Source: Candidatus Arthromitus sp. SFB-rat-Yit | GTDB taxonomy: Bacteria; Bacillota; Clostridia; Clostridiales; Clostridiaceae | Length of the DNA stretch: 32,000 nucleotides | Direction of reading: 5' to 3' | Assembly (NCBI RefSeq): GCF_000283555.1 | Contig: NC_016012.1 | Location: 240,001 to 272,000, forward strand | Part shown: piece by piece, positions 24,118 to 27,719 of the stretch | Layout of the letters: the number at the start of each line of letters is the position of its first letter | Numbering within the stretch: position 1 is the stretch's first letter | Position numbers and translations under genes: made by a program | Notes under the pieces: generated by a model | What the model was told of the DNA's origin: nothing | The model's database searches: none | What the model saw: the letters and a program-made list of their open reading frames with translations, nothing else

Positions 24118-24179
24118 AAGGAAATGAAAGAGAGAACTTTTCCCTATTCAATTGTCAATGATCTATCTTCTTTAATAAT

Positions 24180-24254
24180 TGGCTCCGCGGAGAGGACTCG
24201 AACCTCCAACCTATCGGTTAACAGCCGAGTGCTCCACCATTGAGCTACCGCGGA
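24180..24254 (-). tRNA. tRNA-Asn (GTT), inverted duplicate copy inside the 16S-23S spacer (antisense to the operon; expression from this strand unproven)
   Basis: It is the exact reverse complement of the tRNA at 27563-27637. Confidence 0.7.
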
Positions 24255-24258
24255 ACAA

Positions 24259-24374
24259 ACTGGCAATGACTTACTCTTCCATAGGGGTAACCCTAAAGTA
24301 CCATCAGCACAGTGTAGCTTAACCTTCCTGTTCGGTATGGATAGGGGTGTTACCTACACGTTATAATCACCAGA
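24259..24374 (-). rRNA. rrf: 5S ribosomal RNA, inverted duplicate copy inside the 16S-23S spacer (antisense to the operon; expression unproven)
   Basis: It is the exact reverse complement of the 5S gene at 27443-27558. Confidence 0.7.
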
Positions 24375-24491
24375 TACTGAGAAATATTTTAATCTCTCAA
24401 AATTGTATATAAATAGTAAATAATGCGAAAGGTAGCAAGTTAAATTATTAGCAATAGTAATTTAAGAGCTGGAAAAAATATATAACAAATA

Positions 24492-27384
24492 GGTCAAGCT
24501 ACTAAGAGCGCACAGAGGATGACTTGGCATCAGGAGCTGATGAAGGACGTGATAAGCTGCGATAAGCTACGGGTAGACGCAAATAGTTATTGATCCGTAG
24601 ATTTCCGAATGGGGGAACCCACATAGTGAGAGACTATGTATCTAGTAATGAATAAATAGTTATTAGAGGGTAGACGCAGGGAACTGAAACATCTAAGTAC
24701 CTGTAGGAAGAGAAAGAAATATCGATTCCCTAAGTAGCGGCGAGCGAAAGGGGAAGAGCCCAAACCCAAGGAAACTTGGGGGTTGAGGGAGTCTATAATT
24801 GAGAGAGTAAGTTAGATGAATATAGATGGAAATCTAAGCCAAAGAGTGTAAAAGCCACGTAATTTAAAACTGAAATTGAGAGGGACTTACCCAGAGTACC
24901 ACGAGACACGAGAAACCTTGTGGGAAGCAGGGTGGACCACCACCCAAGGCTAAATACTACCTGATGACCGATAGTGGAGTAGTACCGTGAGGGAAAGGTG
25001 AAAAGAACCCCGGAAGGGGAGTGAAATAGAACCTGAAACTGTGTGCTTACAACCGCTCAGAGCACGTAATATGTGTGATGAGGTGCTTTTTGTAGAACGA
25101 GCCAACGAGTTACGATGTGTAGCGAGATTAAGGTCTTAAGGACTGGAGTCGAAGAGAAATCGAGTGTTAATAGCGCGAATAGTTGCATGTTGTAGACCCG
25201 AAACCGGGTGACCTATCCATGATCAGGTTGAAGCGAAGGTAAAACTTCGTGGAGGACCGAACCACGTTGGTGTTGAAAAACCATGGGATGAATTGTGGAT
25301 AGCGGAGAAATTCCAATCGAACTCGGAGATAGCTGGTTCTCCCCGAAATAGCTTTAGGGCTAGCGTTAATTTATAGAATATAGGAGGTAGAGCACTAAAT
25401 GGGCTAGGGGCCGTAAGGTTACCGAACCTTATTAAACTCCGAATGCCTATATTTGTTTATTAGCAGTCAGTCTAAGAGTGATAAGATTCTTGGACAAAAG
25501 GGAAAAAGCCCAGATCACCAGCTAAGGTCCCAAAGTATGAGTTAAGTGGTAAAGGATGTGGAGATTCTAAGACAACTAGGATGTTGGCTTAGAAGCAGCC
25601 ATTCATTTAAAGAGTGCGTAATAGCTCACTAGTCGAGAGTTTCTGCGCCGAAGATAAACGGGGCTAAAACTCATCACCGAAGCTGTGGAATGGAAACATT
25701 GGTAGGGGAGCGTTGTATAAGAGCTGAAGCTAAAGCGAGAGCAATAGTGGATTTTATACAAGAGAGAATGTTGGCATAAGTAGCGAGAATTAGGTGAGAA
25801 TCCTAATGGTCGAAAGCCTAAGGTTTCCTGGGGAAGGTTCGTCCGCCCAGGGTAAGTCGGGACCTAAGCTGAGGTCGAAAGGCGTAAGTGATGGACAATC
25901 GGTAGAGATTCCGATACCACTAATTATTGATTGATCGATGGAGGGAAGCAGAAGGATAGGATAGCCAACAGATGGAGGTTGGTCTAAGAGAAGAGATAGC
26001 ATATAGAGGAAAATCCATATATGTGTTTAAGTTGATTCTTTATGGGGAGACGAATGAGTCGAAGTATCTGATTTCACACTGACGAGAAAAACTTCTAGGT
26101 AGATAATTAGTGCCCGTACCACAAACCGACACAGGTAGGCGAGGTGAGAATCCAAAGACCAGCGGAAGAATTGCAGTTAAGGAACTCGGCAAATTGACCC
26201 CGTAAGTTAGCGAGAAGGGGTGCCATAGAGATATGGTCGCAGAGAATAGGCCCAAGCAACTGTTTATCAAAAACACAGGTCTCTGCAAAAGCGAAAGCTT
26301 AAGTATAGGGGCTGACGCCTGCCCGGTGCTGGAAGGTTAAGGGGAGCTGTTATCGTAAGAGAAGCGGTGAACTTAAGCCCCAGTAAACGGCGGCCGTAAC
26401 TATAACGGTCCTAAGGTAGCGAAATTCCTTGTCAGGTAAGTTCTGACCCGCACGAATGGCGTAATGACTTGGGCACTGTCTCAACTGCAAATCCGGCGAA
26501 ATTGTAGTGCAAGTGAAGATGCTTGCTACCCGCGATTGGACGGAAAGACCCCGTAGAGCTTTACTGTAGTTTAGCATTGAGTTTTGGTAATATTTGTACA
26601 GGATAGGTGGGAGACTGGGAATCTAGATCGCCAGATTTAGAGGAGTCGATGTTGGGATACCACCCTGATATTACTGAAATTCTAACTGGAATCCATGAAC
26701 TGGGTACAGGACACTGTTAGATGGGCAGTTTGACTGGGGCGGTCGCCTCCAAAAGAGTAACGGAGGCGTTCAAAGGTTTCTTCAGAAGGGATGGAAATCC
26801 TTCGTAGAGCGTAAAGGCATAAAGAAGCTTGACTGCGACACCTACAAGTGGAGCAGGTACGAAAGTAGGACTTAGTGATCCGGTGGTACCTCGTGGGAGG
26901 GCCATCGCTCAACGGATAAAAGCTACCTCGGGGATAACAGGCTGATCTCCCCCAAGAGTTCACATCGACGGGGAGGTTTGGCACCTCGATGTCGGCTCGT
27001 CGCATCCTGGGGCTGAAGTAGGTCCCAAGGGTTGGGCTGTTCGCCCATTAAAGCGGCACGCGAGCTGGGTTCAGAACGTCGTGAGACAGTTCGGTCCCTA
27101 TCCGTCGCGGGCGCAGGAGATTTGAGAGGAGCTGTCCTTAGTACGAGAGGACCGGGATGGACTAACCAATGGTGAACCAGTTGTTCCGCCAGGAGCACGG
27201 CTGGGTAGCTAAGTTAGGAAGGGATAAACGCTGAAGGCATCTAAGCGTGAAGCCCACCTCAAGATAAGATCTCCCATAGCGTAAGCTAGTAAGACCCCTT
27301 GAAGAACACAAGGTTGATAGGTAAAAGGTGTAAGTATGGTAACATATTTAGCTGATTTATACTAATAGGTCGAGGGCTTGACCA
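24492..27384 (+). rRNA. rrl: 23S ribosomal RNA, copy 1
   Basis: The 5' end is ggtcaagctactaagagcgcacagaggatgacttggca...gatgaaggacg. Internal conserved blocks include ggataacaggctgatc, acggggaggtttggcacctcgatgtcggctc and agtacgagaggaccgg. The 3' end is ctaataggtcgagggcttgacc. Confidence 0.97.
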
Positions 27385-27442
27385 AATACTTAGCAAGTTA
27401 TTATTTATATACAATTTTGAGAGATTAAAATATTTCTCAGTA

Positions 27443-27558
27443 TCTGGTGATTATAACGTGTAGGTAACACCCCTATCCATACCGAACAGGAAGGTTAAGC
27501 TACACTGTGCTGATGGTACTTTAGGGTTACCCCTATGGAAGAGTAAGTCATTGCCAGT
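27443..27558 (+). rRNA. rrf: 5S ribosomal RNA
   Basis: tctggtgatt...ccataccgaacaggaaggttaagc...gagagtaagtcattgccag is a typical 5S sequence. It lies 58 nt after the 23S. Confidence 0.93.
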
Positions 27559-27562
27559 TTGT

Positions 27563-27637
27563 TCCGCGGTAGCTCAATGGTGGAGCACTCGGCTGTTAAC
27601 CGATAGGTTGGAGGTTCGAGTCCTCTCCGCGGAGCCA
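27563..27637 (+). tRNA. tRNA-Asn (anticodon GTT), CCA encoded
   Basis: The acceptor stem is TCCGCGG/CCGCGGA. The D-arm is GCTC-AATGGTG-GAGC. The anticodon loop is CTGTTAA. The T-arm is GGAGG-TTCGAGT-CCTCT and the 3' end is GCCA. It lies 4 nt after the 5S. Confidence 0.92.
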
Positions 27638-27653
27638 ATTATTAAAGAAGATA

Positions 27654-27668
27654 GATCATTGACAATTG
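27654..27668 (+). promoter_or_regulatory. boxA-like element in the 16S leader (operon 2)
   Basis: It is identical to 22531-22545 (gatcattgacaattg). Confidence 0.4.
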
Positions 27669-27719
27669 AATAGGGAAGAGGAAACGAGAAAGTCAACGTT
27701 AATTTTGAGAGAATGAGAG

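What the first reader, a model, noticed from the sequence alone, without database searches (positions are those of the whole stretch)
24140..27677. Perfect 276-bp inverted repeat brackets the first 23S gene: the operon-1 spacer is an antisense copy of 5S rRNA + tRNA-Asn
Reverse-complementing 27402-27677 reproduces 24140-24415 base for base. That segment comprises the 23S trailer, 5S rRNA, tRNA-Asn(GTT) and the first 34 nt of the 16S leader. I compared all 276 positions by hand and found no mismatch. The 16S-23S spacer of operon 1 (374 nt) therefore carries 5S and tRNA-Asn in antisense orientation. The operon-2 spacer (182 nt) has an unrelated 51-nt segment (29279-29329) where operon 1 has 243 nt (24156-24398). 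That 192-nt difference exactly explains why the 16S copies are 5123 nt apart while the 23S copies are 4931 nt apart. Bacterial ITS regions normally contain sense tRNA-Ile/Ala or nothing. I am not aware of a described rrn operon with antisense 5S/tRNA in the ITS.
Basis: partly seen in the sequence, partly recalled or inferred. Interest (0 to 1): 0.78.

Follow-up and report, generated by a model that had tools for sequence, protein, structure and literature searches.

The report
Antisense 5S/tRNA copy inside rRNA spacer
In a mouse segmented filamentous bacterium, the spacer between the 16S and 23S genes of one rRNA operon has been overwritten by an exact backwards copy of the 5S rRNA and tRNA-Asn region 3 kb downstream; this most likely happened by DNA copying that jumped between the natural stem sequences used to process rRNA, and it is an unusual but probably non-adaptive mutation whose reality still needs read-level proof.

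Summary
Window 24140-24415 is the exact reverse complement of 27402-27677 (276/276). It places an antisense 5S rRNA and tRNA-Asn(GTT) in the 16S-23S spacer of the first of two tandem, otherwise identical rrn operons. The organism is a mouse segmented filamentous bacterium (Candidatus Arthromitus).

The 16S trailer pairs with the 16S leader, and the 23S leader pairs with the 23S trailer. A normal spacer (operon 2) is therefore already an imperfect reverse complement of both ends of the 23S-to-16S inter-operon spacer, with exact cores of 13 and 17 nt.

The best explanation is a templated, non-reciprocal copy (replication template switch or break repair). It entered and left through these quasi-palindromes, perfecting both stems and carrying 5S and tRNA-Asn along backwards.

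An assembler mis-join is unlikely because the shared exact matches are too short. A physical chimera or finishing error cannot be excluded, because no independent assembly or reads were reachable.

This is a new, very large variant of a known mutation type. Interest is moderate.

The parts
22462..22490 (+). Promoter-like site (TTGACC, 17 nt, TG-extended TATACT) in front of operon 1. It is the only good one in front of either operon.
   Evidence: 10 of 12 matches, TG present; consensus match only
22521..22596 (+). 16S leader of operon 1, identical to the operon-2 leader. 22521-22557 is the 5' half of the 16S processing stem.
   Evidence: I2; core conserved in distant relative L005
22597..24115 (+). 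16S rRNA, operon 1
   Evidence: 1552.9 bits
24116..24491 (+). 16S-23S spacer of operon 1 (ITS1, 376 nt), the derived form
24140..24415 (.). Left arm of the perfect 276-nt inverted repeat (the copied segment)
24140..24173 (+). Antisense copy of 34 nt of the 16S leader. It also serves as the 3' half of the 16S processing stem, now perfectly paired. The left switch point lies at 24140-24141.
   Evidence: 24142 is C (leader allele) where ITS2 has T
24180..24254 (-). tRNA-Asn(GTT), antisense to the operon
24258..24374 (-). 5S rRNA, antisense to the operon
   Evidence: 85.6 bits, full length
24399..24415 (+). AAAATTGTATATAAATA, a 17-nt exact homology shared by the normal spacer and the reverse complement of the 23S trailer. 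It is the right switch zone and the core of the 23S processing stem.
   Evidence: I3
24492..27385 (+). 23S rRNA, operon 1, enclosed by the repeat
27402..27677 (.). Right arm and donor: 23S trailer, 5S, tRNA-Asn, and the first 34 nt of the operon-2 16S leader
27443..27559 (+). 5S rRNA, sense
27563..27637 (+). tRNA-Asn(GTT), sense, with encoded CCA
27644..27719 (+). 16S leader of operon 2. It starts 6 nt after tRNA-Asn, with no promoter or terminator between the operons.
27720..29238 (+). 16S rRNA, operon 2
29239..29422 (+). 16S-23S spacer of operon 2 (ITS2, 184 nt), the ordinary and presumably ancestral form. It forms imperfect stems with the 16S leader and the 23S trailer.
   Evidence: I3-I5
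29423..32000 (+). 23S rRNA, operon 2 (cut by the window end)

Best explanation
This is a real, recent, non-reciprocal templated copy in the bacterium's DNA: a template-switch mutation or break repair by synthesis-dependent strand annealing. In any rrn operon the spacer begins with the 3' half of the 16S processing stem, which is complementary to the 16S leader. It ends with the 5' half of the 23S processing stem, which is complementary to the 23S trailer. In a tandem operon pair, the inter-operon spacer runs 23S trailer, 5S, tRNA-Asn, 16S leader. Its reverse complement therefore has the same two ends as the 16S-23S spacer. A growing DNA 3' end that had just copied the 23S-leader stem half (17 exact nt) annealed to the 23S-trailer position on the opposite strand. 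It copied through 5S, tRNA-Asn and into the operon-2 16S leader, then returned to the original template through the 16S stem half (13 exact nt, one mismatch, then 2 nt). The interior of ITS1 (about 51 nt) was replaced by 243 nt of reverse-complement sequence. Both processing stems became perfect and a 276-nt inverted repeat now flanks the 23S gene. Consequences (inferred, not shown): both operons appear to be one transcript, so the pre-rRNA can form a 276-bp perfect duplex enclosing 23S. The 16S and 23S should still be released by double-strand-specific processing. The 5S and tRNA-Asn of operon 1 may be sequestered or destroyed. The repeat could also support inversion of the 23S gene. The change is probably neutral or mildly deleterious rather than adaptive.
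For: The exact 276-nt reverse-complement copy contains intact genes. The copy includes the AATTATT linker between tRNA-Asn and the leader, so the donor was an inter-operon spacer and not the operon-1 promoter context. The normal spacer ITS2 pairs with the 16S leader (19+5+3 bp, -37 kcal/mol) and with the 23S trailer (21 bp plus imperfect extension, -43 to -54 kcal/mol). In ITS1 the same stems are perfect (I2-I5). The ITS1/ITS2 alignment shows residual homology at both ends of the replaced block and identity outside it. The boundaries sit inside these homology tracts: 17 exact nt on the right, and 13 exact nt, one mismatch and 2 nt on the left. That is the signature of homology-guided switching, not of random breakage. 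The leader stem half is conserved in a relative with only about 75% DNA identity, so the stems are functional elements. In Clostridioides difficile the spacer ends are likewise reported to pair with the 16S upstream region and the 23S-5S spacer (PMC4164361). Template switching that perfects RNA stems is documented for rRNA genes (PMC8794818). The window is identical, apart from three homopolymer indels, to a contig assembled from an independent copy of a Japanese 454 read set. The mouse-SFB genome SFB-mouse-Japan was finished with Sanger clones and PCR, and its methods mention no amplification (PMC3158464).
Against: No read-level or independent-assembly support for either junction could be obtained. 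Only one genome shows the structure. The copied tract (243-276 nt) and the source-target distance (about 3 kb) are far larger than typical template-switch mutations; the largest reported in rRNA genes is 59 bp. A perfect long antisense to 5S and tRNA-Asn inside a highly expressed transcript would be expected to carry a cost. The ancestral state is inferred from a paralogue (ITS2), not from an outgroup. The replication or repair step itself is inferred.
Confidence: 0.6

Rival explanations
1. Artefact. The junctions exist only in the assembly or in an in-vitro chimera (PCR recombination during gap closure, a cloning rearrangement, an amplification chimera, or a finishing error in a 10-kb block of identical repeats). 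The true operon-1 spacer would then be the ordinary 184-nt type.
For: Tandem identical rrn operons are the hardest regions to finish. All rRNA copies here are base-identical, as expected if consensus sequence was pasted in. Published SFB genomes disagree on rrn operon number, 5 versus 6. Inverted chimeras at microhomology are the typical product of in-vitro strand switching (own knowledge). No independent support was found.
Against: Two precise junctions are needed, each inside a natural homology tract, giving a clean replacement. A single chimeric molecule gives one junction. The longest exact matches between the normal spacer and the reverse-complement donor are 13 and 17 nt, shorter than the k-mers or overlaps assemblers use, so a purely computational mis-join is unlikely (inference). 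The left junction lies beyond a mismatch, at a 2-nt match, which no overlap consensus would produce. The methods of the published SFB-mouse-Japan genome, the Japanese mouse-SFB genome I could read about, mention no whole-genome amplification. The metagenome scans were uninformative rather than negative, because even the normal spacer was absent.
Confidence: 0.25
2. A selected, functional arrangement. The antisense block might act as a giant processing stem or as an antisense regulator of 5S and tRNA-Asn. The minus-strand copies might be expressed as an extra 5S/tRNA-Asn gene pair. Or the repeat might act as an invertible switch for the 23S gene.
For: Both processing stems are retained and strengthened. 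No terminator-like site is introduced on the + strand. The antisense genes are complete, with native flanks. A promoter-like site on the minus strand (24429-24402) lies upstream of the antisense 5S.
Against: The arms are 100% identical and the flanks are identical to ITS2, so there is no sign of age or of conservation under selection. The minus-strand promoter-like motif is also present in ITS2 (29360-29333), so it is a chance property of the shared spacer. Head-on transcription against an rrn operon would be strongly disfavoured. There is no evidence from any other genome.
Confidence: 0.08
3. Two successive reciprocal inversions between the short inverted stem halves (16S trailer with 16S leader, then 23S leader with 23S trailer), or insertion of a mobile element with terminal inverted repeats.
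For: The short inverted repeats needed for such inversions exist (I3-I5).
Against: Reciprocal inversions would move 5S and tRNA-Asn, not duplicate them, and would leave the reverse complement of the old spacer interior between the operons. The sense copies are still in place. There is no transposase or other plausible ORF inside the arms. There is no target-site duplication: the flanks are GAGAGAACTT and GAGGAAACGA.
Confidence: 0.03

Closest known systems
Template-switch mutations / quasi-palindrome correction (Ripley model; Dutra and Lovett in E. coli; Loytynoja and Goldman four-point model; Monttinen and Loytynoja 2022, PMC8794818)
   Same: A segment is replaced by the exact reverse complement of nearby sequence. 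Entry and exit occur at pre-existing imperfect inverted repeats. The result perfects an RNA stem. The process has been described specifically for rRNA genes.
   Different: The scale differs. Here 243 nt are replaced (276 nt including the homologies) and the source lies about 3 kb away across a whole 23S gene. Known events involve a few to tens of bases with adjacent source and target (largest 59 bp in that study). Here whole genes (5S, tRNA-Asn) are carried along in antisense.
rRNA processing stems (16S leader with trailer, 23S leader with trailer; cut by RNase III and Mini-III)
   Same: The ends of the repeat are these stems. ITS2 shows the ordinary imperfect versions. The same pairing scheme is reported for C. 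difficile (PMC4164361).
   Different: Normal stems are 20-60 bp and imperfect. Here the 23S stem is potentially 276 bp, perfect, and includes mature 5S and tRNA sequence.
Mosaic 16S-23S spacers generated by recombination between rrn operons (e.g. C. difficile ISR modules, PMC4164361)
   Same: Spacers differ in length between operons of one genome. Blocks are exchanged while the conserved start and end are kept.
   Different: Known modules are direct-orientation spacers and sense tRNA genes exchanged between spacers. Here the donor is a different kind of spacer (23S-to-16S) and the orientation is inverted.
Long perfect inverted repeats of unexplained origin (e.g. coding palindromes up to 284 bp in Nematomorpha mitochondria, PMC6649704)
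   Same: Perfect arms of similar length sit within essential genes or operons. Arm identity implies recent copying or ongoing homogenisation.
   Different: The system is different (mitochondrial protein genes, many repeats). Here there is a single event with clear donor, recipient and guiding homologies.

Membership tests
Bacterial rrn operon (16S-ITS-23S-5S-tRNA) | Full-length 16S, 23S and 5S genes in the same orientation | tested here: met
   all three match Rfam models end to end on the + strand, in two tandem copies
Bacterial rrn operon (16S-ITS-23S-5S-tRNA) | Spacer is empty or carries sense tRNA genes (Ile/Ala type) | tested here: not met
   ITS1 carries tRNA-Asn and 5S on the minus strand. 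ITS2 is empty (ordinary).
Bacterial rrn operon (16S-ITS-23S-5S-tRNA) | Leader-trailer complementarity forming processing stems around 16S and 23S | tested here: met
   present for both spacer types, perfect in ITS1
Template-switch mutation | The new sequence is the exact reverse complement of a nearby sequence in the same molecule | tested here: met
   276/276
Template-switch mutation | Switch points lie in pre-existing (micro)homology between target and inverted source | tested here: met
   17 exact nt on the right; 13 exact nt, one mismatch and 2 nt on the left
Template-switch mutation | Ancestral state lacking the change is established from an outgroup | tested here: inconclusive
   Only the paralogous ITS2 is available. 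Relatives found were MAGs without rRNA spacers.
Template-switch mutation | Short range (source and target adjacent, tract of tens of bases) | tested here: not met
   The tract is 243-276 nt and the arms are 2986 nt apart, against at most 59 bp in the rRNA study
Template-switch mutation | Arises during replication or repair synthesis in the cell | not testable with these tools
   Needs reads, strains or experiments
Assembly or chimeric-read artefact | Junctions unsupported by single molecules | not testable with these tools
   No reads available. Look-ups and scans found nothing for either spacer type.
Assembly or chimeric-read artefact | Mis-join explained by exact repeats at least as long as the assembler's word or overlap | tested here: not met
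   The longest exact matches between ITS2-type sequence and the inverted donor are 13 and 17 nt
Composite transposon or IS element bracketing 23S | Transposase gene and flanking target-site duplication | tested here: not met
   The arms hold only rRNA/tRNA sequence and short spurious ORFs. The outer flanks GAGAGAACTT and GAGGAAACGA are not a direct repeat.

The most novel reading that the evidence does not exclude
The arrangement is real, stably inherited in mouse SFB, and has a phenotype. The operon-1 pre-rRNA would form a 276-bp perfect duplex that releases 23S while destroying or titrating its own 5S and tRNA-Asn. Alternatively the repeat would flip the 23S gene in part of the population. 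Either would make this the first natural case in which rRNA processing stems guide a kilobase-range template switch that installs antisense RNA genes in a spacer.
Probability: 0.12. Interest if true: 0.75.

Novelty: new variant of a known kind. Interest (0 to 1): 0.45.

Why it matters
If real, this is an unusually large and clean natural example of template switching. Donor, recipient, guiding homologies and probable copying direction can all be read from one sequence. It also shows a general vulnerability of tandem rrn operons. Because of the processing stems, every 16S-23S spacer is an imperfect reverse complement of both ends of the 23S-to-16S spacer, so the same accident can recur wherever operons are tandem. 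It would offer a natural test of what a cell does with a 276-bp perfect duplex containing 5S and tRNA sequence inside its most abundant transcript. On the practical side, it produces a second spacer-length class (a 192-bp difference) that affects ribotyping and spacer-based typing of SFB. It also flags a place where published SFB assemblies may differ. If it is an artefact, it marks an error in a reference genome of an immunologically important organism.

Tried and rejected
1. Independent assemblies.
- Exact-protein look-ups of genes flanking the rrn locus gave only two short-read Logan contigs, which stop before the 16S.
- The 89%-identical homologue's contig also stops before the 16S.
- The single genome-collection scan (PolA) returned only distant MAGs at 68-70% identity. 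None had rRNA spacers, and one ends 67 nt into a syntenic 16S.
- No NCBI SFB genome appears to be reachable through these tools (Logan, plus ENA for P0004).

2. Junction evidence.
- Exact look-ups of the 39-aa ORF that crosses junction 1, and of the 88-aa ORF over the normal tRNA-Asn/leader region, found nothing on record.
- The metagenome scan for junction 1 gave 0 hits.
- A scan that accepts either spacer type at junction 2 also gave 0 hits. The collection therefore holds no mouse-SFB spacer at all, and the negative result is uninformative.
- I judged a similarity search with the junction ORF not worth its cost. In a k=31 graph the junction-specific unitig would be only about 58 nt, too short to carry a called gene.

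3. Literature.
- The SFB genome papers mention operon numbers (5-6) but nothing about spacer structure.
- The Prakash 2011 paper is not held.
- The run accession DRR001117 is not cited in any held paper, so the window could not be assigned to SFB-mouse-Japan rather than SFB-mouse-Yit.

4. Rejected explanations.
- Reciprocal double inversion, because it gives no duplication.
- A transposon, because there is no transposase and no target-site duplication.
- A chance repeat.
- A de Bruijn or overlap mis-join, because the exact matches are only 13 and 17 nt.
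Full report
**Observation.** Reverse-complementing window 27402-27677 reproduces 24140-24415 at all 276 positions. Neither end extends perfectly, and the window contains no N. The repeat finder reports the same pair independently (I1).

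Rfam and ARAGORN place two tandem rrn operons on the + strand:
- 16S at 22597-24115 and 27720-29238
- 23S at 24492-27385 and 29423-32000, the second cut by the window end
- sense 5S at 27443-27559 and sense tRNA-Asn(GTT) at 27563-27637
- a full-length 5S at 24258-24374 and tRNA-Asn(GTT) at 24180-24254 on the minus strand, inside the operon-1 spacer

The two 16S copies are identical, as are the 23S copies over the 2578 nt available. The spacers are 376 and 184 nt. The 192-nt difference accounts for the 5123 versus 4931 nt spacing of the gene copies.

**Organism and provenance.** The window has 20-30% GC outside the rRNA genes and a strongly positive GC skew throughout.
- A PolA-based scan found the nearest public relatives to be Candidatus Arthromitus-type MAGs at 68-70% protein identity.
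- An exact-protein look-up found two Logan contigs. The contig from run DRR001117 matches window 7411-21717 except for three single-base deletions in A-runs, which are the typical 454 error.
- The window therefore comes from the same strain as a Japanese mouse segmented-filamentous-bacterium data set.
- The SFB-mouse-Japan genome has six rrn operons. It was built from 454 reads plus Sanger reads of 3- and 10-kb plasmid clones, with gaps closed by sequencing PCR products and clones. Its methods mention no whole-genome amplification (PMC3158464).
- Other mouse SFB assemblies report five operons, and 'rRNA operons missing from some genomes' have been noted (PMC9482736; PMC3371716).
- I could not tell which deposited genome the window comes from.

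Both ends of the repeat coincide with the natural rRNA processing stems.
- The shared 16S leader (identical in both operons from 22521/27644) contains AAAGAAGATAGATCATTGACAATTGAATAGGGAAGAG.
- The beginning of the ordinary spacer (ITS2) is its imperfect complement: 29 nt at 83%, with a 13-nt exact core CCTATTCAATTGT (I4/I5).
- The part of the spacer ahead of the 23S is the imperfect complement of the 23S trailer: 28 nt at 89%, with a 17-nt exact core AAAATTGTATATAAATA (I3).
- Co-folding gives a 19+5+3 bp stem at -37 kcal/mol for leader with ITS2. It gives a stem of 21 bp or more, with imperfect extension almost to the 5S, at -43 to -54 kcal/mol for ITS2 with the 23S trailer.
- The leader core is conserved in a relative whose genome is only about 75% identical (L005).
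- The same pairing scheme has been described for Clostridioides difficile operons (PMC4164361).

By construction, then, a 16S-23S spacer reads [complement of 16S leader]...[complement of 23S trailer]. The spacer between two tandem operons reads [23S trailer]-5S-tRNA-Asn-[16S leader]. The reverse complement of the second has the same two ends as the first.

**Anatomy of the event.** An alignment of ITS1 with ITS2 shows the following.
- Positions 24116-24141 and 24399-24491 are identical between the two spacers.
- The ends of the 'unrelated' 51-nt block of ITS2 retain residual homology to the ends of the ITS1 block.
- About 192 nt net are inserted in the middle.
- On the right, ITS1 switches from donor-type to spacer-type sequence somewhere inside the 17-nt exact match (24399-24415).
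- On the left, ITS1 carries the donor allele at 24142 (C, giving a Watson-Crick pair with the leader, where ITS2 has T, giving G-U). It carries the spacer allele three bases further out. The exchange point is therefore the TT at 24140-24141, beyond the 13-nt exact core and one mismatch.
- The copy includes the complement of the AATTATT linker between tRNA-Asn and the leader. The donor was therefore an inter-operon spacer, not the promoter-proximal leader of operon 1.
- Sense 5S and tRNA-Asn are still in place, so the event was non-reciprocal.

**Most likely mechanism (inferred).** A growing DNA 3' end copied the spacer from the 23S side and reached the 23S-leader stem half.
1. It annealed instead to the complementary 23S-trailer position on the other strand, through 17 perfect base pairs plus imperfect flanking pairing.
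2. It copied the trailer, 5S, tRNA-Asn and 34 nt of leader.
3. It re-annealed to the original template through the 16S stem half, tolerating one mismatch near its end.

The perfect homology is on the right and the mismatched return is on the left, which fits synthesis running right to left. That direction corresponds to the lagging strand given the positive GC skew, or to repair synthesis from a break in the spacer. This is the template-switch, or quasi-palindrome-correction, mechanism known from bacteria. It has been shown to create and perfect stems in rRNA genes (PMC8794818), but here on a much larger scale. The largest pattern in that study was 59 bp with adjacent source and target, against 243-276 nt across about 3 kb here.

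**Consequences (inferred).**
- The only good promoter-like site lies before operon 1: 22462-22490, TTGACC, 17 nt, TG-extended TATACT.
- There is no promoter-like or terminator-like site in the 6-nt gap and shared leader between tRNA-Asn and the second 16S, and none is introduced on the + strand of ITS1.
- The two operons are therefore probably one transcript, and both arms would sit in the same RNA. As RNA the arms pair over 275 of 276 positions, at -540 kcal/mol.
- The 16S stem of operon 1 becomes 37 bp at 97% (I2). The 23S stem can extend over the whole repeat.
- Release of 16S and 23S by double-strand-specific nucleases should still work.
- The operon-1 5S and tRNA-Asn could be sequestered or cut.
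- The excised spacer would be an abundant antisense RNA to 5S and tRNA-Asn.
- At the DNA level, a 276-bp perfect inverted repeat 2986 bp apart could mediate inversion of the 23S gene.
- None of this suggests an advantage. The perfect identity of the arms, and of the flanks with ITS2, indicates a recent event or continuing homogenisation.

**Real or artefact.** I could not obtain reads or an independent assembly.
- Flanking-gene look-ups end before the 16S.
- Relatives in the genome collection are MAGs without spacers.
- ORFs crossing the junction are not on record.
- Metagenome scans found neither the junction nor even the normal spacer, so those negatives carry no weight.

The internal evidence argues against a purely computational error.
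- The normal spacer and the inverted donor share exact matches of only 13 and 17 nt.
- The left junction lies beyond a mismatch.
- Two precise junctions are required.

A physical chimera, such as PCR recombination during gap closure or a clone rearrangement, remains possible. It would need two homology-guided switches in one molecule that then dominated the consensus. I put about 0.6 on a genuine in-vivo event, about 0.25 on an artefact, and the remainder on selected or functional readings and other routes.

**Comparison and novelty.** Two literature searches found no rrn operon described with antisense 5S or tRNA genes in the 16S-23S spacer. Known spacer variation involves sense tRNA genes and direct-orientation modules (PMC4164361). 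The mechanism belongs to a known kind (template-switch mutation), but its scale and its guidance by both rRNA processing stems are new. I rate it a new variant of a known kind. Interest is moderate: surprising to a specialist and neatly explained, but seen in a single genome, probably non-adaptive and not yet verified.

Noticed in passing
window 27386-27719: The two rrn operons are separated only by 23S trailer, 5S, tRNA-Asn and a 6-nt linker before the shared 76-nt leader. No promoter-like or terminator-like site lies between them, so they are probably co-transcribed from the promoter at 22462-22490.
   Followed up: partly
window 18358-19686 and 19690-22416: Two large ORFs (442 and 908 aa) sit directly upstream of the rrn locus. 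They have about 19-20% GC and no Pfam match. Their homologues appear only in Logan, and in one case ENA, assemblies with no source-given names, at 33-89% identity. They look like lineage-specific, fast-evolving proteins.
   Followed up: partly
window 10103-11776 (and 12074-13375 on the minus strand): An nSTAND3-type NTPase ORF lies in a 21-22% GC patch, next to an RmuC gene on the opposite strand. All other genes in the window except three run with the leading strand.
   Followed up: no
window 22400-22432: A perfect 14-bp hairpin with a 5-nt loop overlaps the stop codon of the 908-aa ORF. It is a likely AT-rich terminator just before the rrn promoter, and the G+C-based terminator scan missed it.
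   Followed up: no
L001 (Logan DRR001117 contig), window positions 13871, 20716, 20743: The Logan contig splits PolA and the 908-aa ORF into two genes each because of single-base deletions in A-runs. These are pyrosequencing errors in that assembly, not pseudogenes.
   Followed up: yes
L005 19620-19660 versus window 22525-22557: The 16S leader core ATAGATCATTGACAATTGAATAGG is conserved in a relative whose flanking genes are only about 75% identical. That relative also has a 16S at the syntenic position downstream of PolA, CoaE and tRNA-Leu.
   Followed up: partly
literature (PMC9482736, Table 1): Published rRNA gene totals for SFB-rat-Yit (16) and SFB-mouse-SU (17) are not multiples of three. 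This could reflect an extra 5S copy like the one here, or simply annotation differences.
   Followed up: no
window 24429-24402 (minus strand) and 29360-29333: A promoter-like motif TTCGCA, 16 nt, TACAAT on the minus strand lies just upstream (in minus sense) of the antisense 5S. The same motif occurs in ITS2, so it belongs to the shared spacer sequence and is probably fortuitous.
   Followed up: no
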